The notes beneath the pieces were generated by a model. The model was not told where the DNA came from. It ran no database searches and worked only from the letters and a program-made list of their open reading frames with translations. From IMG/VR virus record IMGVR_UViG_3300037873_000013, positions 1 through 62,071 of that record: 62,071 nt of DNA; one strand, 5' to 3'. The position numbers were made by a program, and so were the translations under genes. Positions 16,654-52,451 of this stretch are shown here, piece after piece. Source of the stretch: a virus (lineage: Duplodnaviria; Caudoviricetes). Within the stretch, counting starts at the first letter, position 1. Every line of letters starts with the position of its first letter.

Positions 16654-16703
16654 GTAGCTTGACAGACTCCGCCAAACCTGCTTTAATCAAGGCATGACGA
16701 GCA
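16646..16703 (+). promoter_or_regulatory. Operator + TTGACA-N17-TTTAAT promoter + leaderless ATGACGAGCA start
   Basis: -35 16659, -10 16682, ATG 16694. Confidence 0.7.
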
Positions 16704-22813: not shown

Positions 22814-23308
22814 ATGCAGGCTCCATCCATACAGACGCCTAGCGTCGAGGTAGCTCTCAGGTCGGCAGGGCATGCAGGGTTGACCATCAAAGAGCTGATG
22901 GATGCGACGGGGCTCTCCGAGACCACCACCAGGCGCAAGGTTGCCGAACTGAAGGTAGCTGGTCAGCTGCACAAGGCTCCGAGCATGGATGGTGCCAAGC
23001 ACTACTGGGGCCCGAGACCTGATGGACGGAGAGCTGTCCCGGTGACCCAGAACGCTGAGGAGGTCGCTCCGAGACGGCGCGAGGCCTACGAGCGCGACAT
23101 GAAGGTGCTGGAGGTGCTCAGGGTCAACGAGCGCATCAGCTGCAACGAGATCGCCCGGATCCTGAACATGCCGGACATCGATGACGATGGCTGGAGCCAG
23201 CTGGCCTACCTGAGTCTCAGACGGCTGCGCAAGAAGGGCTTCACACAACGAGAGATCGTCTGGGAGTACACCGGGCCCAAGGAGGATCTTGACCAGATCG
23301 AAGCGTGA
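22814..23308 (+). CDS. Tandem winged-HTH DNA-binding protein (candidate operator-binding regulator)
   Basis: LTIKELMDATGLSETTTRRKVAEL and ISCNEIARIL...LRRLRKKG; operator 22797-22813 abuts the ATG. Confidence 0.7.
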   Translation: MQAPSIQTPSVEVALRSAGHAGLTIKELMDATGLSETTTRRKVAELKVAGQLHKAPSMDGAKHYWGPRPDGRRAVPVTQNAEEVAPRRREAYERDMKVLEVLRVNERISCNEIARILNMPDIDDDGWSQLAYLSLRRLRKKGFTQREIVWEYTGPKEDLDQIEA

Positions 23309-23362: not shown

Positions 23363-23408
23363 TTGACAGTGGCGGCGTTGTTCAAGTAAGTTGTTCGTAT
23401 GACGAGCA
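23363..23408 (+). promoter_or_regulatory. TTGACA-N18-TAAGTT promoter + leaderless ATGACGAGCA start
   Basis: -35 23363, -10 23387, ATG 23399; degenerate operator 23382-23398. Confidence 0.7.
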
Positions 23409-24551: not shown

Positions 24552-24596
24552 TTGACGAACGGCGCCACCTGTGCGATGATGCAGGCATGACGAGCA
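24552..24596 (+). promoter_or_regulatory. TTGACG-N17-GATGAT promoter + leaderless ATGACGAGCA start
   Basis: -35 24552, -10 24575, ATG 24587. Confidence 0.65.
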
Positions 24597-39668: not shown

Positions 39669-39713
39669 TTGACACGGCGGAGTCGAGTAGGTAACTTGAA
39701 CATATGACGAGCA
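39669..39713 (+). promoter_or_regulatory. TTGACA-N17-TAACTT promoter + operator (39683-39699) + leaderless ATGACGAGCA start
   Basis: ATG 39704, 6 nt after -10. Confidence 0.75.
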
Positions 39714-42496: not shown

Positions 42497-44761
42497 ATGA
42501 CCGCTCCCGTTGTAGCGTCAGAGGCTTCCAGCAGCGAGGACGCCAACACCACCACCCACACGGTGGACATGCCATCAGGCATCGTCTCTGGGAATCTCTT
42601 GGTATTGGCGTTCGCTCTTGACAGTCGTGCGAACGTTTCTGGTCAGATTGCCGATGACTGGGTTCAAATAGCGAATACTGCCCACTCCGGCGATCTCGCT
42701 AGCATCCGAGTATTCTCGAAGACTGCAACAGGATCCGAAGGCGCTTCACAGTCGATCACAACAGCAGCTAGTGAGTGCTCTGCGCATCATGTGTGGCGTA
42801 TCACCGGGTCGACCGGGACCCCTGAGGCAGCGATCTTTCAGGGCAACGTCGACACCAGTCTTGATCCTCCAGCATTGAACCCAACAGCTTGGGATGTCGA
42901 GGACACGCTGTGGCTCGCGCTGTCGTCGAGTGACGATGCAACATCCACCGTCACAGGGTTCCCTACGAGCTACACGGGCACGGGCCAGGTCAACGCTGCC
43001 GATTCGGCAGACGGCGTAACCCTAGGTTATGCAGTTAGAGCCAACGCTACAGCCAGTGAGGATCCGAGTCCGTTCACGATCTCGGCAGCTGAGGCGTTCT
43101 GCACTGTCACCGTCGGAATTCGACCGGTTCCTGACTATCCAACTCTTCAAGCAGAAGGCACTCAGCCGGCAAACGTCACCACAGGGAACCTGACGCTTAC
43201 CCTCCCCACACATCAGGCTGATGACATCCTTGTCGCCATCGTGGCGATCTGGGCGCCGAACACCGCCGGGTCGCTCGCCGCCATCCCGGCATTGACCGAT
43301 TGGACCAAGCAGGGTGCAGTCAACTTCCCGGGCACGCCTGATGGAGAGATAGCGTTCTTCTGGCGAAGAGCGACAGCCTCGGGAACCACTAACCCTACAT
43401 TCACGCGAGGGGCGAGCTGGGACACCGGCACAGACACCGCGTACGGGGGCCGGGCGTTCGTGATCCGTGGTTGCGTGACCACGGGGGATCCGTGGGACGA
43501 GTTCGACCCGACAGCGGCGCTCACCGGCGCCAACGGATCGGTCGACGCGGTCACGGTCTCCGCGGCGAAGCGGACCGTCATCCAGTTCCTGGGCAAGACC
43601 GACGACTTCGTCACCGGCCCGACGGTCTCGGGGTGGACACCTGGCGTCCAGACCGAGCAGACCGCTGGGACCGACACCAGCTTCGGGACGTTCCGCAAGG
43701 AGAACGTGTCGGCCTCGACGACCGCCGACGCCTCGACGGTGGAAGCCCCGGTGGCCGGGGCGTACGTGTTCTTCGGGGTCAGCTTCAAGCCTCCGGTTAC
43801 TGGGACACCACCTGTTGCAGCCCTTGCTGAGATCGATGCTCTTCTCTCCACCAGCAAGAGCAGCGACAGAGCAGCGGTGCTGCTGGCCGAGACGGATGTC
43901 CTGGTCACAGCCTCTCGAACGCACACCCTGGAAGCCACGGCGCTCGCTGAGCTGGATGTTCTTCAGCCTGTGGCGCGCACTGGCGCTCCCACGATCACAG
44001 CTCTCGCTGAAGTCGACGTGCTCTCGGCTGTCGCTCGATCGAGCGTGCAGACCGTGGCTGTGCTCACCGAGGCTGATGCGCTCACGGCAGCTCCGGCTGT
44101 GCATGCCCAGACTGTGACGTTGCTGGCCGATGCCGAGCAGTTGTTGAGCGTTACCAAGGCTTCGGATCGACCAGCCGGTCTGCTGACCGAGGTGGATGCT
44201 CTCCTGACCGTGGCTCGGTCGAGCAGCTACCAGCTCGGAAGCTGGGCAGAGGTTGACGCTCTGGTTGCTGGGCAGCGCTCGGGTAGTCAGTTGGCCGGAG
44301 TGCTGGCCGAGCTGGATGCGCTCGAAGCTCTGGCTGCTCCTGACGCTGTTGGGGCTCTGGCCGAGATTGATCAGCTTCTCGCTGTAGGGCACGAGACCAC
44401 GCGCCCGGTCACTTTGCTCAGCGAGATCGATGGGTTGCTCGTCGTCCAGCGCTCCACCACACAGGCTGTGAGCCTGCTGAGCGAGCTGGAACAGCTTCTG
44501 GCTCCCACACGGGCTACCGAGCAGTCAGCAGCGCTCCTGAGCGAGCTGAACGCACTCCTGGCGCCGATCGTGGTTGTGGTCGACGTGCAAGTGACCGTTG
44601 GCGAGTTGCGACGTCGACTGGTAGTGCTCGATCCCGCACGAAAGAAGCGCACGATAGGAGTGCTCGATCACAGGGCCCGGCCTGGAGAGCTGAGGGCACA
44701 CAGCATCCAGGGTGAGCTGACTCGACGCTACGATGTCGGCGAACTGGAGGATGAGCTGTGA
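42497..44761 (+). CDS. Fibre-like virion protein: two beta domains plus 13 x ~20-aa repeat stalk
   Basis: Two related Thr/Ala-rich domains; C-terminal L(A/S/T)ExDxL repeats at 20-aa period. Confidence 0.7.
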   Translation: MTAPVVASEASSSEDANTTTHTVDMPSGIVSGNLLVLAFALDSRANVSGQIADDWVQIANTAHSGDLASIRVFSKTATGSEGASQSITTAASECSAHHVWRITGSTGTPEAAIFQGNVDTSLDPPALNPTAWDVEDTLWLALSSSDDATSTVTGFPTSYTGTGQVNAADSADGVTLGYAVRANATASEDPSPFTISAAEAFCTVTVGIRPVPDYPTLQAEGTQPANVTTGNLTLTLPTHQADDILVAIVAIWAPNTAGSLAAIPALTDWTKQGAVNFPGTPDGEIAFFWRRATASGTTNPTFTRGASWDTGTDTAYGGRAFVIRGCVTTGDPWDEFDPTAALTGANGSVDAVTVSAAKRTVIQFLGKTDDFVTGPTVSGWTPGVQTEQTAGTDTSFGTFRKENVSASTTADASTVEAPVAGAYVFFGVSFKPPVTGTPPVAALAEIDALLSTSKSSDRAAVLLAETDVLVTASRTHTLEATALAELDVLQPVARTGAPTITALAEVDVLSAVARSSVQTVAVLTEADALTAAPAVHAQTVTLLADAEQLLSVTKASDRPAGLLTEVDALLTVARSSSYQLGSWAEVDALVAGQRSGSQLAGVLAELDALEALAAPDAVGALAEIDQLLAVGHETTRPVTLLSEIDGLLVVQRSTTQAVSLLSELEQLLAPTRATEQSAALLSELNALLAPIVVVVDVQVTVGELRRRLVVLDPARKKRTIGVLDHRARPGELRAHSIQGELTRRYDVGELEDEL

Positions 44762-45075
44762 GCGTGGTTCTCGAAGCGGAATCGATCGAGCGACTGATCC
44801 AGGACATCAAGGCTGATCTCGATCCGACTGTCAACGATCCTGAGTACGCGTTCACACAGGGCACCGAACGGCCGGACACGTGGACAGCAGGCGCCTGGGA
44901 CGGAGATGCCACCCAGTCAGGCAGCACCTGGAAGGCGCGAGCGATCACGCCGCTGCTCGGAGCCTCGGGAGCGGAGGTACAACTAGTGGCTGGGAGCTGG
45001 GTGCCCTGGCTGCGACTCACCATCTCCGATGAGGTGGTCGTGACCAAGTTGACGAAGCTGACCGTGAGGGGTTGA
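44758..45075 (+). CDS. Small beta-rich structural/adaptor protein
   Basis: GTGA coupling to the fibre gene. Confidence 0.6.
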   Translation: MSVVLEAESIERLIQDIKADLDPTVNDPEYAFTQGTERPDTWTAGAWDGDATQSGSTWKARAITPLLGASGAEVQLVAGSWVPWLRLTISDEVVVTKLTKLTVRG

Positions 45076-45102
45076 CAGGCGATGCTCAAGTTAGTAACTT
45101 GA
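45072..45102 (+). promoter_or_regulatory. TTGACA-N17-TAACTT promoter overlapped by operator TCAAGTTAGTAACTTGA, driving the ncRNA locus
   Basis: -35 45072, -10 45095, operator 45086-45102. Confidence 0.7.
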
Positions 45103-45188
45103 CCTGTGCCAACCAACTACGAGCAAGGAGGTGGCCAGCTCCGCCATGCAGACCATCTGTGACTTGACGTAGTAGGAAGGCGTGCTCC

Positions 45189-45246
45189 GTGTTGCTGGTA
45201 GCCGATTGTCCCCATCCGAAACCCCACGGTTGGCTACCAGCAGCAC
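45189..45246 (+). ncRNA. Long hairpin with C-rich loop in the ncRNA leader
   Basis: ~21-bp stem (with G-U pairs) and loop CCCCATCCGAAACCCC. Confidence 0.55.
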
Positions 45247-45252
45247 AAACAA

Positions 45253-45345
45253 GGGGATTGGTGTAAGTGGTGCACGCGGTGTCGTAGCTTCACTGCTCGT
45301 CAAGCTCTGCCGTAGAGCCCGGTTCAACTCCGGGCATCCCCACCA
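45253..45345 (+). tRNA. Atypical tRNA-like RNA with enlarged anticodon arm (no assignable standard anticodon)
   Basis: Acceptor GGGGAT/ATCCCC-A-CCA; D arm GTGT-AAGTGGT-GCAC; T arm GCCCGG-TTCAACT-CCGGGC; 26 nt where a 7-nt anticodon loop is expected. Confidence 0.75.
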
Positions 45346-45377
45346 ACAGAGATCTGTCGTCCCCAGCCGGCAGAAAG

Positions 45378-45417
45378 CGACTCCCCTGGTCATCTTCCTG
45401 CGGCCAGGGGAGTTGCG
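45378..45417 (+). terminator. Hairpin closing the ncRNA locus
   Basis: gcgactcccctggtc / ggccaggggagttgc. Confidence 0.6.
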
Positions 45418-45444
45418 CGTCACCGGTCAAGTAACCTGCTCGAT

Positions 45445-46983
45445 GTGAGCAGTCTCGTTACCGTGCCGAAGAACTGGAGAGAGCTGGATCTCGCTGCCAA
45501 GGCCCGGCTCAGGTGGCGGCTCAAGTCCAGGGCAAAGCAGCTCACTCCATCCGAGCACGCCCTGTGTGAGGACCCTGACCTGTGCGGGGAGATCATCAGG
45601 CAGAGTTTCAAGAAGTGGCCCATGCGTTTCCAGGCACCCGAGCGCGAGCACTTCCAGTTCATCAATGGACATGTGCCCTGGTTCGTTTGGTTGATCCTTG
45701 CTGGGCGTGGCTGGGGGAAGACTCGGACTGGTGCTGAAGATATAGCCAAATCGATGAACGAGAAATCGATTCGGGTGGCTCTCGTTGGGCCAACCTTTGC
45801 CGACGGTAGAGACACCATGGTAGAAGGTGAATCAGGGCTGCTCTCAGTTCTACCCAAGAGCTTGATCGAGAATTGGAACCGTTCCATTGGCGAACTGGTG
45901 TTGCGCAATGGCAGTAGAGCTAAGATCTTCTCAGCAGAAGAACCTCAGCGGTTGCGCGGGCCCCAGCACCATCGTGCTTGGTGTGATGAGATAGCCGCCT
46001 GGCGTTACCTGCAAACCACCTGGGACATGCTGATGTTCGGCTTGCGACTGGGGCGTGAGCCGAAGGTGATCATCACCACTACGCCCAAGCCCTATCGCTT
46101 CATCCGGCGTTTGGTGGCTCAGTCGACCGATCGTAGCCAGAAGGTGGTCCTGACAACTGGGAGCACCTTCGAGAACAAGCGCAATCTTCCCACCGTGGTC
46201 ATCAACAAGCTCACCGAGACGTACGAGGGCACGCGGCTGGGACGCCAGGAGCTTGACGCTGAGGTGCTCGAAGACCTGGCTGGTGGGATCATCAGGCTTG
46301 CCGATATCGAGGCCATGCGGCTCTCGGTGGGAGATGTCCGAGCAGCGTTTCCGACTGCTGACATCAAGGATCTGATGGATCGGATCGTGGTCGCAGTCGA
46401 CCCTGCTGTCACCTCGAACCCCACGAGCAACGAGACAGGCATCGTGGTGGCCGGACGTTCGATGGGCCCCTGTCCGATCTGCAGCCCTGTCGAGAACCCC
46501 CGTCGACGCTCACACGCGTTCGTGCTCGAAGACGCTACGGCTGCTCGACGGGTGACAGAGGCGGAGTGGAGCAGCAACGTGGTCTTGACCTACCGGCGTT
46601 GGTGGGCTGACAAGGTGGTCGGCGAGGTCAACAACGGTGGCGATCTGGTCGAGGCTGTGATCCGAGCTGTGGACGGCACGCTGCCCTACGAAGCTGTTCG
46701 AGCGTCGCGAGGCAAGGTGCAGCGGGCGGAGCCCATCGGAGCGCTCTACGAGCGTCACGAGGTCCACCACGTAGGGACGTTCCCAAAGCTGGAGGACCAA
46801 CTGTGCCGGCTGGGGATCGACCCTGAAGACGAAGAGGATCCGGACCCCGATGACGAAGACAGCAGCTCACCAGACCGGGCTGACGCCTGTGTGTGGGGTC
46901 TCACCGAGCTGATGATCCCCGATGCTCGGATCACGACTACGACCGGCCAGGCAGAGGATGAGCGGGGCTTGAGCGACCGGTAA
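45445..46983 (+). CDS. terL: Terminase large subunit
   Basis: AGRGWGKT, LRGPQ, WCDEIAAW, ITTTP, VAVDPA, SPDRADA. Confidence 0.95.
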   Translation: MSSLVTVPKNWRELDLAAKARLRWRLKSRAKQLTPSEHALCEDPDLCGEIIRQSFKKWPMRFQAPEREHFQFINGHVPWFVWLILAGRGWGKTRTGAEDIAKSMNEKSIRVALVGPTFADGRDTMVEGESGLLSVLPKSLIENWNRSIGELVLRNGSRAKIFSAEEPQRLRGPQHHRAWCDEIAAWRYLQTTWDMLMFGLRLGREPKVIITTTPKPYRFIRRLVAQSTDRSQKVVLTTGSTFENKRNLPTVVINKLTETYEGTRLGRQELDAEVLEDLAGGIIRLADIEAMRLSVGDVRAAFPTADIKDLMDRIVVAVDPAVTSNPTSNETGIVVAGRSMGPCPICSPVENPRRRSHAFVLEDATAARRVTEAEWSSNVVLTYRRWWADKVVGEVNNGGDLVEAVIRAVDGTLPYEAVRASRGKVQRAEPIGALYERHEVHHVGTFPKLEDQLCRLGIDPEDEEDPDPDDEDSSSPDRADACVWGLTELMIPDARITTTTGQAEDERGLSDR

Positions 46984-46990
46984 CGCGAAA

Positions 46991-47020
46991 GAGCCGGGCC
47001 CTAGCGGCGGGGCCCGACTC
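46991..47020. terminator. Hairpin between convergent genes
   Basis: gagccgggccc / gggcccgactc. Confidence 0.55.
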
Positions 47021-47039: not shown

Positions 47040-47282
47040 TCAGAGCTTGAACAGCTGCTCGACCTTACGGAGAGCGAAGGCTCGCCAGGCGTCAGTCTCT
47101 TCGACCGGACGACCAGCCTTGACCAGTTCATCGGCGAAGCCAAGCACGAGCTTGGTGAAGTGCGTAACGTTGGTGGCTTCGCCCACGATCCGATTCCAGA
47201 TGTGGTTGAAGCGATCGAACAGCTCATCAGTGAACTGATCGGCGAAGGGGTTGGTTCCGAAGTTCTGAGTGGTGCTCGTCAT
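47040..47282 (-). CDS. Small early protein (MTSTTQNF..., 80 aa)
   Basis: Minus-strand TTGACA(47318)-N18-CATACT-6 nt-ATGACGAGCA; operator 47315-47331. Confidence 0.75.
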   Translation of the reverse strand: MTSTTQNFGTNPFADQFTDELFDRFNHIWNRIVGEATNVTHFTKLVLGFADELVKAGRPVEETDAWRAFALRKVEQLFKL

Positions 47283-47784: not shown

Positions 47785-48065
47785 GCCAGATCACAGCCTT
47801 CCTGGTGGCCTTCATCGGCCACGATCTGGCCGGGGCAACCACAGGGGAGCACACCGTCAGTCGATCGGTAGAAGTAGTGCGTGCCGCCACGAGGGCCCGA
47901 GCGCTCTTCACGTAGCGCGTAGCCCTTGTCAACCAGGTGCTCACAGGCGCCGACACAACGGATCAGCGTGCTGGGGACCCAGCGGTTGCCGTTGCCGCTC
48001 AGGCGTTGGAGCCGCCCATACACTTCCTTCTGGTGCGGAGTGAGCCGCTTCTTGGTGCTCGTCAT
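47781..48065 (-). CDS. Early winged-helix-like protein (MTSTKKRLT..., 94 aa)
   Basis: Minus-strand TTGACT-N17-TATGAT-7 nt-ATGACGAGCA; LT.HQ.EV...HLVDKGY..RE...YFYR. Confidence 0.7.
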   Translation of the reverse strand: MTSTKKRLTPHQKEVYGRLQRLSGNGNRWVPSTLIRCVGACEHLVDKGYALREERSGPRGGTHYFYRSTDGVLPCGCPGQIVADEGHQEGCDLA

Positions 48066-48141
48066 GTAGGTGATCATACTCCGCCGAAGAAACCGAGTCA
48101 AGTAGGTTGACAAACTCCGCCGGATCTGATTAGCTGTGGTC
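48066..48141. promoter_or_regulatory. Back-to-back divergent promoters
   Basis: TTGACT (minus, 48096-48101) and TTGACA (plus, 48107-48112), each with CTCCGCC in the spacer. Confidence 0.7.
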
Positions 48142-48460
48142 ATGGACAGCGGGACGCCGCTGGTGAGGAGGGGTGATCCCGCCTTCAATGCTCCCACGGG
48201 ATACATGCCGGCCCTGGTTGGGCGATGCAGCGGAAGAGCTAACTCTCTTCCACAGGGTTCGATTCCCGCTGACGGCACGAGCCATCACGTAGTTCCCGGA
48301 ACAGGGTCTTAAACCGATCTCTGAGCCTCCCATCAACGGTCCACCGTCCCAAGGCGACGTCATCCGGCCCGACGGCACTTGCCGCCAACCCCGGAACCCT
48401 CGCAGGGTCACAGGATGTCAGTGCAGGGCGCGAGCTGCGGATCGGGCGTGATGGCTTTCA
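48142..48460 (+). ncRNA. Putative large structured ncRNA (two closed domains)
   Basis: Long-range pairs 48147-48154/48264-48271 and 48280-48289/48447-48456; several internal hairpins; T-loop-like GGGTTCGATTCCC. Confidence 0.5.
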
Positions 48461-48490
48461 TTCGAGACAGAGACGAGCAGGAGACGAGAG

Positions 48491-49000
48491 ATGAAACGAT
48501 CCGAACTAAGTCCTGGACTCGAAGTTGAGCGCAAGCAGGGCAGAGAGTACCCGAGCTTCACCACAGGCATCATCGTGCTCGATGACCACAATTGGGATTC
48601 AGTTCCGAGATGGCGACGCAGAAGCCCTGACCATGTGTACGAGCCTGCACAAGGTCCGAAGGATTACGCCGCTCATCGTGGGATTCCTTGTGCTGTGCGA
48701 GTCGGCACGGAGTGGCGACCCAAGCTGATCCGAGCACAGGAGCTGGTGCCTGCTGGTTCAGCTGCTACGCACGATGCTGCTCAGCAGCAAGCCAAAGAGC
48801 GACAGAACAACCTCGAACAGCAGCGCAACGAGAGACTGCAGAGCCTCAAAGAGCGTTCGGGTGTCGAGATGTTGCGATATGCCACCGGTTGGCAGAACAT
48901 CGACTACACCAGCGTCACACTCTCGATCGAGGACTTCGAGCGTGTGCTCTCCGATGCTCTCGAAGCTCGGACAGCTCGGGCTGCTGGCAAGATCAGTTGA
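48491..49000 (+). CDS. Hypothetical protein
   Basis: AGGAG RBS in a GAGAC-rich leader. Confidence 0.7.
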   Translation: MKRSELSPGLEVERKQGREYPSFTTGIIVLDDHNWDSVPRWRRRSPDHVYEPAQGPKDYAAHRGIPCAVRVGTEWRPKLIRAQELVPAGSAATHDAAQQQAKERQNNLEQQRNERLQSLKERSGVEMLRYATGWQNIDYTSVTLSIEDFERVLSDALEARTARAAGKIS

Positions 49001-49009
49001 TCAACCTAC

Positions 49010-49054
49010 TTGACAACCTCCGCCAACCGTGACATGCTTCTCTCATGACGAGCA
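49010..49054 (+). promoter_or_regulatory. TTGACA-N17-CATGCT promoter + leaderless ATGACGAGCA start
   Basis: ATG 49045. Confidence 0.7.
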
Positions 49055-49374: not shown

Positions 49375-50324
49375 CCGCTCAACTTAGCCAGAGGGAGCTG
49401 TGTGCTCTCTCTGGCTGTTTCGCTCCACCCATGTATCTGAGCATGCCTCGATGCGGATATCCAGATTGTGGGGCAGTCCTAGTGGGAGAGTGGAACGAAC
49501 GGTTCTCTCAGTGGGATTGGATTGATCTGGATGGCCACATGCTTGTGCATCACGACTGGGTTGACGAGATCTACAAGAGACTCGAAGACGTTGGCGAGCG
49601 GAGTCTCTCAAAGAGCAAGAAGGTCAGGCGGACAGTCACAGACGATCAAGCAGCTTGGTACTCGGAGACTCGTGCTGCTCTCGATCTAGGTTGGATACAT
49701 ACCTTCCACCAGCACTGCCCAGTAGGTGGTAAGACCGACGGATCAGGGCCTTGGTGCTGTGCTCAGCCGATGCAATGGACAGAGCCAGGGTGGCGCTGTC
49801 GAGTGCGCAAGGAGACGATCGTGCAAGCTGTCAGCGATGCTGTCTGGGTGCTTTGGGGTCTCCAGCGAACCACCAACGAGCTGTCACAGCTCCACAGGGG
49901 CCTGTACGAGAGCTGCAAGCACGCCCAGCCAGGATGGGCAGCAGATGGCTGGATCACGGGCCCCTACCGCGAGGGCTTCGAGCCCAAGGCGCTCTTGCTC
50001 ATCCAGTCGAACAGGTTACTTGACAATGACCGCCAAGTGAGCGAGACTGAGCCCATGACGAGCACGATCGGACAGCGAGAGGCGACCAACCGAGCGATCA
50101 AGGCCACGGCCATCCTGGCTGTGCTCGATGGCTTCAGTCTGAGCGCTGACGAAGTGGAGCGGCTGGATGACGCTGGTTGGCAGGCAGCTGCGCAGCTCGC
50201 TGCGAAGCGCCAGAACCCTCCGGCTGAGTGGATCGATGCCAGTCCTACCACCCGAGCCACGGTCATCGGAACGCTTCGCCAGCGCGAGGCGACTCCGAAC
50301 GAGTTCGAGGGGTTCCCGCAGTGA
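49371..50324 (+). CDS. Cys/Trp-rich hypothetical protein containing an internal promoter and in-frame restart at 50055
   Basis: ATGA coupling; internal cassette at 50007-50064. Confidence 0.6.
   Translation: MTAQLSQRELCALSGCFAPPMYLSMPRCGYPDCGAVLVGEWNERFSQWDWIDLDGHMLVHHDWVDEIYKRLEDVGERSLSKSKKVRRTVTDDQAAWYSETRAALDLGWIHTFHQHCPVGGKTDGSGPWCCAQPMQWTEPGWRCRVRKETIVQAVSDAVWVLWGLQRTTNELSQLHRGLYESCKHAQPGWAADGWITGPYREGFEPKALLLIQSNRLLDNDRQVSETEPMTSTIGQREATNRAIKATAILAVLDGFSLSADEVERLDDAGWQAAAQLAAKRQNPPAEWIDASPTTRATVIGTLRQREATPNEFEGFPQ
50055..50324 (+). CDS. Early protein (MTSTIGQ..., 89 aa), nested in frame
   Basis: TTGACA(50020)-N17-GAGACT-6 nt-ATGACGAGCA. Confidence 0.65.
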   Translation: MTSTIGQREATNRAIKATAILAVLDGFSLSADEVERLDDAGWQAAAQLAAKRQNPPAEWIDASPTTRATVIGTLRQREATPNEFEGFPQ

Positions 50325-52392: not shown

Positions 52393-52451
52393 TCGACCAA
52401 CTTACTTGACAGACTCCGCCAACAGGCGTATAGTCACCTGCATGACGAGCA
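52393..52451 (+). promoter_or_regulatory. Operator + TTGACA-N17-TATAGT promoter + leaderless ATGACGAGCA start
   Basis: -35 52406, -10 52429, ATG 52442. Confidence 0.75.

What the first reader, a model, noticed from the sequence alone, without database searches (positions are those of the whole stretch)
45253..45345. tRNA-shaped RNA whose enlarged anticodon loop is antisense to the shared 5' end of nine leaderless phage mRNAs
Seen: the element has an acceptor stem with encoded CCA, a D arm and a T arm, but 26 nt sit where a 7-nt anticodon loop belongs. These fold as AGCTT(45286-90)/AAGCT(45302-06) around an 11-nt loop CACTGCTCGTC. TGCTCGTCA (45294-45302) is the exact reverse complement of nt 2-10 of ATGACGAGCA, the 10-mer that starts nine promoter-proximal genes (16694, 23399, 24587, 39704, 47282-, 48065-, 49045, 50055, 52442). 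The mRNA conservation ends at nt 10, exactly where complementarity ends. A given 9-mer is expected in a 93-nt RNA about 85/4^9 (~3e-4) of the time at uniform composition. The RNA has its own operator-overlapped promoter (45072) and a downstream hairpin. Inference: a tRNA-mimic guide RNA, possibly matured by host tRNA-processing enzymes, recognises a whole regulon of leaderless early mRNAs. It could silence them at the early-to-late switch or help load them on ribosomes. I know of no described system like this.
Basis: partly seen in the sequence, partly recalled or inferred. Interest (0 to 1): 0.95.

Follow-up and report, generated by a model that had tools for sequence, protein, structure and literature searches.

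The report
tRNA-shaped phage RNA with antisense loop
A phage carries one odd tRNA-shaped RNA gene whose enlarged anticodon arm displays nine bases exactly complementary to the identical first ten bases of nine leaderless phage genes, which may make it a tRNA-scaffolded antisense regulator, though this is not yet shown.

Summary
45253-45345 is a real, non-canonical tRNA-shaped element with a 6-bp acceptor stem plus encoded ACCA, a D arm and a consensus T arm. A 5-bp anticodon stem encloses 28 nt instead of 7. A T-arm/acceptor/CCA scan hits only this site in the window and 1 of 300 random windows. ARAGORN at default settings and Rfam do not call it. Both ORFs across it look non-coding.

ATGACGAGCA occurs 9 times (0.24 expected), always 6 nt behind a TTGACA/-10 promoter, and +1 to +10 is invariant. 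The only tenth copy of the 9-mer in the genome is the antisense one in the apical hairpin of the element. I estimate about 1e-3 by chance for this element.

Function is not shown. No RNA data exist either.

Best reading (about 0.4): a tRNA-scaffolded antisense RNA that pairs with nt 2-10 of the nine leaderless mRNAs and blocks their initiation.

Rivals are a tRNA-like RNA with another role and chance complementarity, a DNA-level protein site (operator half-sites cluster here), and an insertion-bearing tRNA-Thr.

Weakening details: the loop is partly paired in the best fold, and the RNA shares its targets' operator. An unrelated phage has a similar odd tRNA-like element without visible targets.

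The parts
45072..45103 (+). Putative promoter of the RNA unit. It has -35 TTGACA at 45072-77, a 17-nt spacer and -10 TAACTT at 45095-100, overlapped by the operator-like palindrome CTCAAGTTAGTAACTTGAC at 45085-45103. The expected start is about 45107-45108.
   Evidence: sequence. One search finds the palindrome with 1 mismatch to GTCAAG-N7-CTTGAC (13 such sites against 3.0 expected). The same layout and the same -10 hexamer stand in the cassette at 39704. The generic promoter scan does not call it.
45108..45252 (+). Leader of the unit. It holds an AGGAGGTG box, an 8-codon ORF (45146-45172) and a long hairpin 45189-45203/45232-45246.
   Evidence: inverted repeat I2, 15 nt, 93% complementary. 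The 318-nt transcript model 45108-45425 folds with z = -5.56, and 0 of 100 shuffles fold as well.
45253..45345 (+). tRNA-shaped RNA with these parts: acceptor 45253-58/45336-41, discriminator A45342, CCA 45343-45, D arm 45261-75, stem 45276-80/45309-13, and T arm 45317-22/45330-35 with loop TTCAACT.
   Evidence: fold. (module scan: the only hit in the window; 1 of 300 random windows). ARAGORN at default finds none. Rfam has no match at gathering scores, and no tRNA match even at E up to 10. Relaxed ARAGORN calls tRNA-Thr(CGT) with a 21-nt insert, but that setting gives 60 calls over the window.
45286..45306 (+). Hairpin that replaces the anticodon loop. The stem is AGCTT/AAGCT. The apical part 45291-45301 has UGCUC (45294-98) open.
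   Evidence: This fold (-37.4) beats a type II tRNA fold (-30.5 kcal/mol).
45294..45302 (+). TGCTCGTCA, the reverse complement of nt 2-10 of ATGACGAGCA. It overlaps the operator half-site GTCAAG at 45299-45304.
   Evidence: The cost of opening is 3.7 kcal/mol for all nine bases and 0.2 kcal/mol for UGCUC alone.
45377..45416 (+). G+C-rich hairpin behind the tRNA-like part, a possible terminator without a T run.
   Evidence: I3, 13 nt, 92% complementary. It is not called by the terminator scan, which needs a T run.
45436..45452 (+). Hairpin CTGCTC/GAGCAG round the GTG start (45445) of the large terminase gene. GAGCAGU (45447-53) is also complementary to ACUGCUC (45292-98) of the element.
   Evidence: Read. 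The N-termini of relatives support the start at 45445.
16694..16703 (+). ATGACGAGCA at the start of a 58-aa gene.
23399..23408 (+). ATGACGAGCA at the start of a 71-aa gene.
24587..24596 (+). ATGACGAGCA at the start of a 131-aa gene.
39704..39713 (+). ATGACGAGCA at the start of a 56-aa gene.
47273..47282 (-). ATGACGAGCA at the start of an 80-aa gene.
48056..48065 (-). ATGACGAGCA at the start of a 94-aa gene.
49045..49054 (+). ATGACGAGCA at the start of a 109-aa gene.
50055..50064 (+). ATGACGAGCA at the start of an 89-aa gene.
52442..52451 (+). ATGACGAGCA at the start of a 92-aa gene.

Best explanation
The element is a small non-coding RNA built on a tRNA scaffold. Its acceptor stem, T arm, D arm and encoded CCA would give it the maturation and stability of a tRNA, through RNase P at the 5' end and trimming back to CCA at the 3' end (inferred). 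Its anticodon loop is replaced by a hairpin, so it cannot decode in the normal way (inferred from the fold).

The open apical bases UGCUC start pairing with the 5' end of the nine leaderless mRNAs, all of which begin AUGACGAGCA. The helix then extends to nine pairs over nt 2-10 of each mRNA (inferred). A leaderless mRNA is recognised by the ribosome through its 5'-terminal AUG. Covering U2 and G3 of that codon and the next two codons would therefore block initiation of the first cistron, and could mark the duplex for cleavage (inferred).

The RNA is transcribed from a promoter that carries the same operator as its targets. A long-lived tRNA-like RNA would accumulate and damp these short-lived mRNAs with a delay (inferred).

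Shown here: the shape is non-random, the match is exact and unique in the genome, the target motif is invariant at nucleotide level, and the region does not look coding.
For: - Shape. The T-loop/T-stem/acceptor/NCCA module is found once in the window, at 45253-45345, and in 1 of 300 random windows. All four stems are intact, which argues against a decaying pseudogene.
- Coding. The codon score is -0.12 for the plus-strand ORF and -0.05 for the minus-strand ORF across the gap. Right-frame pieces of known genes score 0.31 +/- 0.12, and wrong-frame pieces -0.35 +/- 0.24. The plus ORF has only itself in the 5.8-billion-protein set. The minus ORF has no kin: one unrelated hit at E = 6e-5. Neither ORF matches PHROGs.
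- Target motif. There are 9 copies against 0.24 expected. Positions +1 to +10 are 9 of 9 identical, while the 6 nt between the -10 box and +1 vary. The same Thr and Ser codons are used in all nine genes, so the constraint is on nucleotides, not on the peptide.
- Match. The antisense 9-mer in the element is the only non-cassette copy in the window. The 8-mer has 8 non-cassette copies and the 7-mer is common. I estimate about 1e-3 for such a match in a given 93-nt RNA.
- Access. UGCUC is open (0.72-0.93 unpaired). Opening costs 0.2 kcal/mol for this seed and 3.7 kcal/mol for all nine bases.
- Own unit. There is a promoter-like site with an operator upstream and a strong hairpin downstream.
Against: - I have no evidence of expression and no relatives to test covariation.
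- In the best fold, G45299, U45300 and A45302 are mostly paired.
- The element's fold energy is ordinary (z = -1.75), and the cloverleaf is not kept in the best fold of the whole 318-nt transcript model.
- The promoter is not called by a generic scan, and the hairpin lacks a T run.
- GTCAAG inside the match is an operator half-site, one of four within 45098-45431. Part of the match may therefore be there for a DNA-binding protein.
- The same 9-mer is a native part of a family of phage tRNA-Asp genes, 7 of the 13 hits. tRNA-derived sequence can therefore carry it for other reasons.
- A similar ARAGORN-negative tRNA-like element with a 31-nt loop lies in a phage that shares only the terminase with this one. 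It shows no repeated complementary target in its 26.8 kb; that record is rated 57% complete.
- The RNA is co-regulated with its targets, so it gives no obvious temporal switch.
- The finding is post hoc.
Confidence: 0.4

Rival explanations
1. This is a tRNA-like RNA with a role that needs no pairing with the nine mRNAs. It could be a processing and stability module in the transcript upstream of the terminase gene, with RNase P and 3' trimming cutting the transcript at defined places. It could also be a decoy or mimic for a host enzyme that binds tRNA. Under this reading the 9-nt complementarity is coincidence.
For: - The tRNA shape is solid, while the antisense match rests on a single post hoc coincidence of about 1e-3.
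- The element sits 100 nt upstream of terL, between two strong hairpins.
- A phage that shares only terL with this one has a comparable odd tRNA-like element, with encoded CCA and a 31-nt loop, and no visible target set.
- TGCTCGTCA occurs natively in phage tRNA-Asp genes.
Against: - The 9-mer is unique outside the cassettes. It lies at the apex of the one hairpin that replaces the anticodon loop.
- The invariant 10 nt of the nine mRNAs still need some trans-acting reader.
- None of the 239 terL-relative loci carries a canonical tRNA. Two more distant relatives, L178 and L276, have nothing tRNA-like upstream of terL. A general 'terL leader processing' role is therefore not conserved.
Confidence: 0.27
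2. The recognition is at the DNA level. ATGACGAGCA at +1 to +10 of the nine promoters is a protein-binding site, for example a repressor that sits on the start point, or part of the initially transcribed region that the polymerase needs. The tenth, inverted 9-of-10 copy inside the RNA gene is another such site, or part of the local cluster of operator half-sites.
For: - Double-stranded DNA carries the site in either orientation.
- Four CTTGAC/GTCAAG half-sites lie within 45098-45431, where about 0.3 is expected from the window's 53 copies. One is 45299-45304, inside the match.
- A 25-nt inverted repeat holding half-sites brackets the whole unit, 45094-45118 with 45411-45435.
- An HTH protein is encoded at 22880-23308.
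- Full palindromes of the type GTCAAG-N7-CTTGAC overlap the promoters: 13 sites against 3.0 expected.
Against: - The half-site explains only GTCA of the nine bases. TGCTC next to it is still about a 1-in-1000 event.
- A site at about +190 of the RNA unit has no obvious role.
- I identified no protein that binds it.
Confidence: 0.13
3. It is a working or recently disabled tRNA gene with an insertion. On this reading it is tRNA-Thr(CGU), which reads ACG, the second codon of all nine genes. It carries a 21-nt hairpin inserted after position 37, which is either removed by an unknown activity or tolerated. A variant of this reading is a type II (Leu/Tyr-like) tRNA with a 9-nt anticodon loop.
For: - Relaxed ARAGORN gives tRNA-Thr(CGT) with a 21-nt insert between A37 and U38.
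- The acceptor/T-loop/CCA pattern of the element is shared with phage tRNA-Leu (9 of the 20 hits) and tRNA-Tyr (3 of 20).
- The length of 93 nt is in the type II range.
Against: - At that ARAGORN setting the window gives 60 calls, so the call carries no weight.
- Default ARAGORN, with or without introns, finds nothing.
- Rfam's tRNA model does not match even at E up to 10.
- The type II fold is 7 kcal/mol worse.
- 21 nt is far too short for a self-splicing group I intron, and I see no bulge-helix-bulge motif in the fold (inspection).
- No RNA ligase, splicing endonuclease or CCA enzyme was found among the 43 proteins scanned with Pfam.
- The acceptor has G2-C71, not the C2-G71 that I recall as a Thr identity element (from memory).
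Confidence: 0.1
4. It is a relic without function: a captured host or phage tRNA gene, or the tRNA part of an attachment site, that has been scrambled by an insertion.
For: - It is the only tRNA-like gene in the genome.
- It is not recognised by the standard tools.
- The minus strand of the insert reads like a collapsed promoter cassette, CTTGAC fused to GACGAGCA (my reading).
Against: - All four stems and the insert hairpin are intact.
- The cloverleaf is complete, not a 3' fragment as in attachment sites.
- No integrase was found among the 43 proteins scanned.
- It sits in a promoter-to-hairpin unit.
Confidence: 0.1

Closest known systems
Trans-encoded base-pairing small RNAs of bacteria and phages that block translation initiation (general class; recalled, not tested here)
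   Same: It is a short RNA with its own promoter and a terminator-like hairpin. An exposed loop seed is exactly complementary to the initiation region of several mRNAs.
   Different: The scaffold is a tRNA cloverleaf with encoded CCA. The targets are leaderless, so the RNA would cover the 5'-terminal start codon itself rather than a Shine-Dalgarno region. All nine targets share one invariant 10-mer. My four literature searches (listings and abstract starts only) showed no such case.
Engineered 'tRNA scaffold' for expressing recombinant RNAs, where a hairpin is inserted in place of the anticodon stem-loop (recalled from memory; no paper opened)
   Same: The architecture is the same: an intact acceptor, D and T arms, with a foreign hairpin carried on the anticodon stem. 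The rationale there is processing and protection by the tRNA machinery.
   Different: That scaffold is a laboratory construct. This would be a natural example with a regulatory loop.
Viral tRNA-like RNAs joined to hairpins (TMER RNAs of murid herpesvirus 68) and mascRNA-type tRNA-like small RNAs (recalled from memory)
   Same: They are non-decoding tRNA-shaped RNAs flanked by hairpins. They are cut out by tRNA-processing enzymes and carry CCA.
   Different: Those are eukaryotic systems in which the tRNA part serves as a processing signal for neighbouring hairpins. None has an antisense loop in the anticodon arm.
Bacterial Y RNAs (YrlA) that mimic tRNA (PMC4201824; I saw only the search listing and the start of the abstract)
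   Same: It is a non-coding RNA with T-arm and D-arm mimicry, known also from phage-rich actinobacterial settings (the last point recalled).
   Different: As I recall, in YrlA the 5' and 3' ends lie in the Ro60-binding stem on the anticodon side, with no free acceptor-CCA end. Here the ends form an acceptor stem with CCA. Rfam, which would include a Y RNA family if it curates one (I recall that it does), gave no match. No TROVE/Ro60 protein was found among the 43 proteins scanned.
tmRNA, including two-piece forms
   Same: GGGG at the 5' end, a T arm and ACCA at the 3' end. The T arm plus ACCA gives a weak partial match to the permuted tmRNA model (14.1 bits, E = 0.61, against a gathering score of 47).
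   Different: There is no G3-U70 pair, no tag reading frame, no pseudoknots, and a normal D arm and anticodon stem. ARAGORN's tmRNA search finds nothing here at default settings or at 80% on the region. At 85% it lists only a spurious permuted call among 7 in the window.

Membership tests
Canonical tRNA | Recognised by ARAGORN at its default score and by the Rfam tRNA covariance model. | tested here: not met
   ARAGORN finds 0 genes in the window. Rfam gives 0 matches at gathering scores, and no tRNA match at E up to 10 in 45150-45450.
Canonical tRNA | A 7-nt anticodon loop on a 5-bp stem. | tested here: not met
   28 nt lie within the 5-bp stem 45276-80/45309-13. The alternative type II fold has a 9-nt loop and is 7 kcal/mol worse.
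Canonical tRNA | An acceptor stem with discriminator and CCA, a T arm with a T-loop consensus, and a D loop with GG. | tested here: met
   There are six Watson-Crick acceptor pairs, A73, CCA, the T loop TTCAACT on a 5-6-bp stem, and the D loop AAGUGGU.
Intron-bearing tRNA (group I, or archaeal bulge-helix-bulge type) | A self-splicing group I fold, or a bulge-helix-bulge motif at the exon-intron borders together with a splicing endonuclease and ligase. | tested here: not met
   The insert is 21 nt. Rfam gives no intron match. I see no 3-nt bulges flanking a 4-bp helix in the fold (inspection). No ligase or endonuclease family was found in the 43 proteins scanned. The relaxed ARAGORN call is at noise level, with 60 calls in the window.
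tmRNA | A tRNA-like domain with G3-U70, a tag-peptide reading frame and pseudoknots. | tested here: not met
   The third pair is G3-C70. There is no tmRNA call. The only match is a 14.1-bit partial one over the T arm and ACCA.
Bacterial Y RNA (YrlA) | A Ro60-binding stem formed by the two ends, and a Ro60 gene in the genome. | tested here: not met
   The ends form an acceptor stem with CCA. No Rfam match. No TROVE-domain protein was found among the 43 scanned. Not all ORFs were scanned.
Trans-acting base-pairing small RNA | A seed complementary to its targets at a functional site. | tested here: met
   Nine exact pairs with nt 2-10 of nine leaderless genes. The seed UGCUC is open.
Trans-acting base-pairing small RNA | Its own transcription unit and a detectable transcript. 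| tested here: inconclusive
   A cassette-type promoter and a hairpin are present but are not called by the generic scans. No RNA run holds the sequence.
Trans-acting base-pairing small RNA | Seed and target conserved or co-varying in relatives. | not testable with these tools
Phage attachment site carrying a tRNA fragment | Only the 3' part of a tRNA, next to an integrase gene. | tested here: not met
   The cloverleaf is complete. No integrase or recombinase family was found in the 43 proteins scanned.

The most novel reading that the evidence does not exclude
This is a natural tRNA-scaffolded antisense RNA. The phage would use the cell's tRNA maturation and protection machinery to make a stable guide. 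The displayed loop of that guide would pair with the invariant first ten nucleotides of a whole set of leaderless mRNAs, and so switch off (or otherwise steer) ribosome loading at their 5'-terminal start codons. The same loop also matches 7 nt at the start of the neighbouring terminase gene.
Probability: 0.35. Interest if true: 0.85.

Novelty: new variant of a known kind. Interest (0 to 1): 0.62.

Why it matters
If the pairing is real, it would be the first natural case, as far as my four literature searches reach, of a tRNA cloverleaf used as a carrier for an antisense loop. It would also be the first small RNA that governs a regulon of leaderless mRNAs by covering the 5'-terminal start codon.

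That would bear on an open question: how leaderless mRNAs, which are common in actinobacteria and archaea, are regulated after transcription. It would also be a natural precedent for the engineered tRNA scaffold.

Even if the pairing is chance, two things deserve an explanation. One is the invariant 10-nt start shared by nine promoter cassettes. The other is the existence of ARAGORN-negative, CCA-ended tRNA-like genes with enlarged anticodon regions in two phages that share only their terminase.

Tried and rejected
Relatives
- megablast of 44000-47000 against phage records found nothing, and neither did tblastn of the 754-aa neighbour.
- The best tblastn hit for terL was 45% identical.
- terL in viral contigs reached at most 50%.
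- The genome-contig scan returned relatives at 56% or less.
- The exact 25-mer of the T arm and acceptor found 0 contigs.
- The promoter-plus-motif pattern found 16 contigs with one match each, which I judge to be about what chance gives (no expectation was computed).
- A clade-specific terL N-terminal pattern found one distant contig, L276, with no tRNA-like element upstream.
- The run search listed one DNA run, probably the source, and no RNA holder. Laying that run showed only the source contig and no variant.
- Earlier notes of this scan hold no look-alike stretch in other genomes.

Spurious-ORF route to relatives' sequence
- The plus-strand ORF across the element matched only itself.
- The minus-strand ORF had no kin.
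- The 131-aa early protein matched only itself.

Rejected ideas
- The leader 7-mer ACGAGCA as a 'self-target'. The 7-mer occurs 39 times in the window.
- Interaction energies from duplexfold. Control gene starts scored as well or better, so the measure does not discriminate.
- A second tRNA-like element at 48206-48277. The fold is weak (z = -0.97), the T stem has only 3 bp and there is no CCA.
- Homology between the window's element and the one in L002/G001. Only the T loop is shared, and only terL of the window's 98 proteins matches that record well.
- blastn of the element against phage records found only a 28-nt T-arm match.

Supplementary files of papers were not consulted, and no paper was opened beyond search listings.
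Full report
What the window is. The window is a complete virus record of 62,071 bp with direct terminal repeats and 60% G+C. It encodes a family A DNA polymerase, an SNF2 helicase, a primase-helicase and a T4-type large terminase, whose gene (terL) lies at 45445-46983. No phage record is close: DNA searches found nothing and the best terL hit is 45% identical.

The element. The stretch 45076-45444 lies between a 105-aa gene and terL. Two long ORFs cross it, one on each strand. Their codon scores are -0.12 and -0.05. Pieces of established genes in the right frame score 0.31 +/- 0.12, and wrong frames score -0.35 +/- 0.24. Neither ORF has a family match or any relative in the large protein sets. 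I therefore treat the stretch as non-coding.

It has a 6-bp acceptor stem followed by A and CCA, a D arm whose loop holds GG, and a T arm with loop TTCAACT. A 5-bp stem stands where the anticodon stem belongs, but it encloses 28 nt. These 28 nt form the hairpin AGCUU/AAGCU.

A simple scan for a T loop, a 5-bp T stem, an acceptor with at least 6 of 7 pairs and NCCA finds this site and no other in the window. It finds a hit in 1 of 300 random windows of the same first-order composition. On bacterial loci the same scan picks out ARAGORN-confirmed tRNAs almost exclusively. The tRNA shape is therefore not an accident.

It is not a standard tRNA, however:
- ARAGORN at default settings finds nothing.
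- Rfam finds nothing at gathering scores.
- At E up to 10 no tRNA model matches. The only related hit is a 14-bit partial match of the T arm and ACCA to the permuted tmRNA model.
- With the threshold lowered to 80% and introns allowed, ARAGORN calls tRNA-Thr(CGT) with a 21-nt insert after position 37. A comparable setting (85%) produces 60 calls over the window, so that label has no weight.
- A type II (long variable arm) fold, noted by another first-stage entry, is 7 kcal/mol worse than the extended-arm fold.

The motif. ATGACGAGCA occurs nine times against 0.24 expected. Each copy stands 6 nt behind a TANNNT box that follows a TTGACA-type box. Position -1 is a pyrimidine in all nine copies (C in 7, T in 2). 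The transcripts should therefore begin at the A of the ATG, which makes them leaderless.

Positions +1 to +10 are identical in all nine copies, while the preceding 6 nt vary. Position +11 is shared by 7 of 9 and +12 by 6 of 9. The nine products are small proteins of 56-131 aa that all begin MTST or MTSN. All nine use the same Thr and Ser codons, so the constraint acts on the nucleotides.

The promoters carry an operator-like palindrome of the type GTCAAG-N7-CTTGAC (13 sites against 3.0 expected). The putative promoter of the RNA unit, TTGACA 45072 - 17 nt - TAACTT, carries the same palindrome at 45085-45103. It has the same layout as the cassettes at 23399 and 39704. A generic sigma-70 scan does not call it.

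The match. TGCTCGTCA at 45294-45302 is the exact reverse complement of nt 2-10 of the motif. It is the only copy of the 9-mer outside the nine cassettes, and shuffles give 1.27 copies per window on both strands. The 8-mer has 8 further copies, and the 7-mer has 39 copies in all.

From the shuffle rate, an antisense 9-mer inside one given 93-nt RNA is expected about once in a thousand.

In the fold, the five bases UGCUC are open (0.72-0.93 unpaired). G45299, U45300 and A45302 are mostly paired. Opening the seed costs 0.2 kcal/mol, and opening all nine bases costs 3.7 kcal/mol. That is small beside a nine-pair helix.

What speaks for a function. All four stems and the insert hairpin are intact, which a decaying pseudogene would not keep. 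The element has a promoter-like site upstream and a 13-bp G+C-rich hairpin downstream. The modelled 318-nt transcript is far more structured than shuffles (z = -5.56), although this is driven mainly by the two flanking hairpins. An anticodon loop replaced by a hairpin rules out ordinary decoding. What remains is a tRNA body that presents a loop.

What speaks against, or for something else.
1. I could not test conservation.
   - terL relatives at 89, 86, 84, 69 and 68% identity exist in the protein collection.
   - The two most informative distant kin, L178 and L276, have nothing tRNA-like upstream of terL.
   - None of the 239 terL-relative loci holds a canonical tRNA.
2. There are no RNA data.
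3. The bases GTCAAG at 45299-45304 form an operator half-site. Four half-sites lie within 334 nt here, against about 0.3 expected. A 25-nt inverted repeat containing half-sites brackets the unit. Part of the match may thus serve a DNA-binding protein. A protein that reads the 10-mer as double-stranded DNA would explain ten sites in either orientation.
4. The 9-mer is native to a family of phage tRNA-Asp genes, where it spans the D-stem 3' strand, G26 and the anticodon-stem 5' strand (7 of the 13 hits).
5. The scan of 255 loci found one more ARAGORN-negative tRNA-like element with encoded CCA, at L002 473-574. It has a 7-bp stem that encloses 31 nt.
   - Its phage shares only terL with this one.
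   - Its 26.8-kb record, rated 57% complete, shows no repeated sequence complementary to the loop.
   - Such elements may therefore exist for reasons unrelated to antisense control.
6. The RNA shares its operator with its targets, so it would act as a delayed damper rather than an early-to-late switch.

A further detail. The GTG start of terL lies in the hairpin CTGCTC/GAGCAG (45436-45452). GAGCAGU at nt 3-9 from that start is complementary to ACUGCUC of the element's loop. A TAACCT box 7 nt upstream could make terL leaderless too, and its relatives begin MT or MS a few residues before the conserved core. This is a 7-nt match seen after the fact, and I give it little weight.

Verdict. I put it at about 0.4. 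The rivals are:
- a tRNA-like RNA with another role and a chance match (0.27);
- a DNA-level site (0.13);
- an insertion-bearing tRNA (0.1);
- a relic without function (0.1).

Known analogues are ordinary base-pairing small RNAs, the engineered tRNA scaffold and viral tRNA-like processing modules; these are recalled from memory. Bacterial Y RNAs are another analogue, for which I saw only a listing. Four full-text searches listed no phage tRNA-like antisense RNA against leaderless mRNAs (listings and abstract starts only). I class it as a new variant of a known kind. The decisive test is the comparison with the five closest terL-bearing contigs.

Noticed in passing
L002 473-574 (= G001:C1:15890-15991): A second ARAGORN-negative tRNA-like element with encoded CCA lies in a 47% G+C phage that shares only terL with the window. 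It has a 7-bp acceptor, a D arm with a 6-bp stem, a 7-bp 'anticodon' stem that encloses 31 nt, and the T loop TTCAACT. With introns allowed, ARAGORN calls tRNA-Leu(CAA) plus a 26-nt insert. No complementary repeated target was found in its 26.8-kb record.
   Followed up: partly
window 45085-45444: There is a cluster of operator half-sites (CTTGAC/GTCAAG at 45098, 45163, 45299 and 45426). A 25-nt inverted repeat, 45094-45118 with 45411-45435 and 76% complementary, brackets the whole RNA unit.
   Followed up: partly
window 45436-45452: The GTG start of the large terminase gene sits in the loop of a 6-bp hairpin CTGCTC/GAGCAG with no Shine-Dalgarno box. A TAACCT box 7 nt upstream suggests that terL may itself be leaderless.
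   Followed up: no
window 48206-48277: There is a weak second tRNA-like shape behind the promoter at 48107. It has an acceptor with 6 of 7 pairs, a 7-bp hairpin with a 6-nt loop in the anticodon position, the T loop TTCGATT on only 3 bp, and no CCA. The fold has z = -0.97. GACGAGCA also stands at 48472, just before the GGAG box of the gene that starts at 48491.
   Followed up: partly
window 14113, 16645, 22796, 24538, 36095, 39682, 45085, 47314, 50006, 52392 and others: Palindromes of the type GTCAAG-N7-CTTGAC occur 13 times at up to 2 mismatches, against 3.0 expected. Most overlap the -35 box or lie between the -35 and -10 boxes of the cassettes. The HTH protein encoded at 22880-23308 is a candidate binder.
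   Followed up: partly
L360, L364, L365, L367, L368, L369, L371: A family of phage tRNA-Asp(GTC) genes carries TGCTCGTCA as the D-stem 3' strand, G26 and the anticodon-stem 5' strand. The window's start motif is thus also complementary to that part of those tRNAs.
   Followed up: no
window 45182-45448 (+): The public gene call for this DNA includes an 88-aa ORF that runs through the tRNA-like element and ends in GTGA on the terL start. Its codon score is non-coding-like and it has no relative, so it is probably a false gene call.
   Followed up: yes
window 42497-44761: A 754-aa protein just upstream has no Pfam or PHROGs family and no tblastn match in 50,697 phage records.
   Followed up: partly
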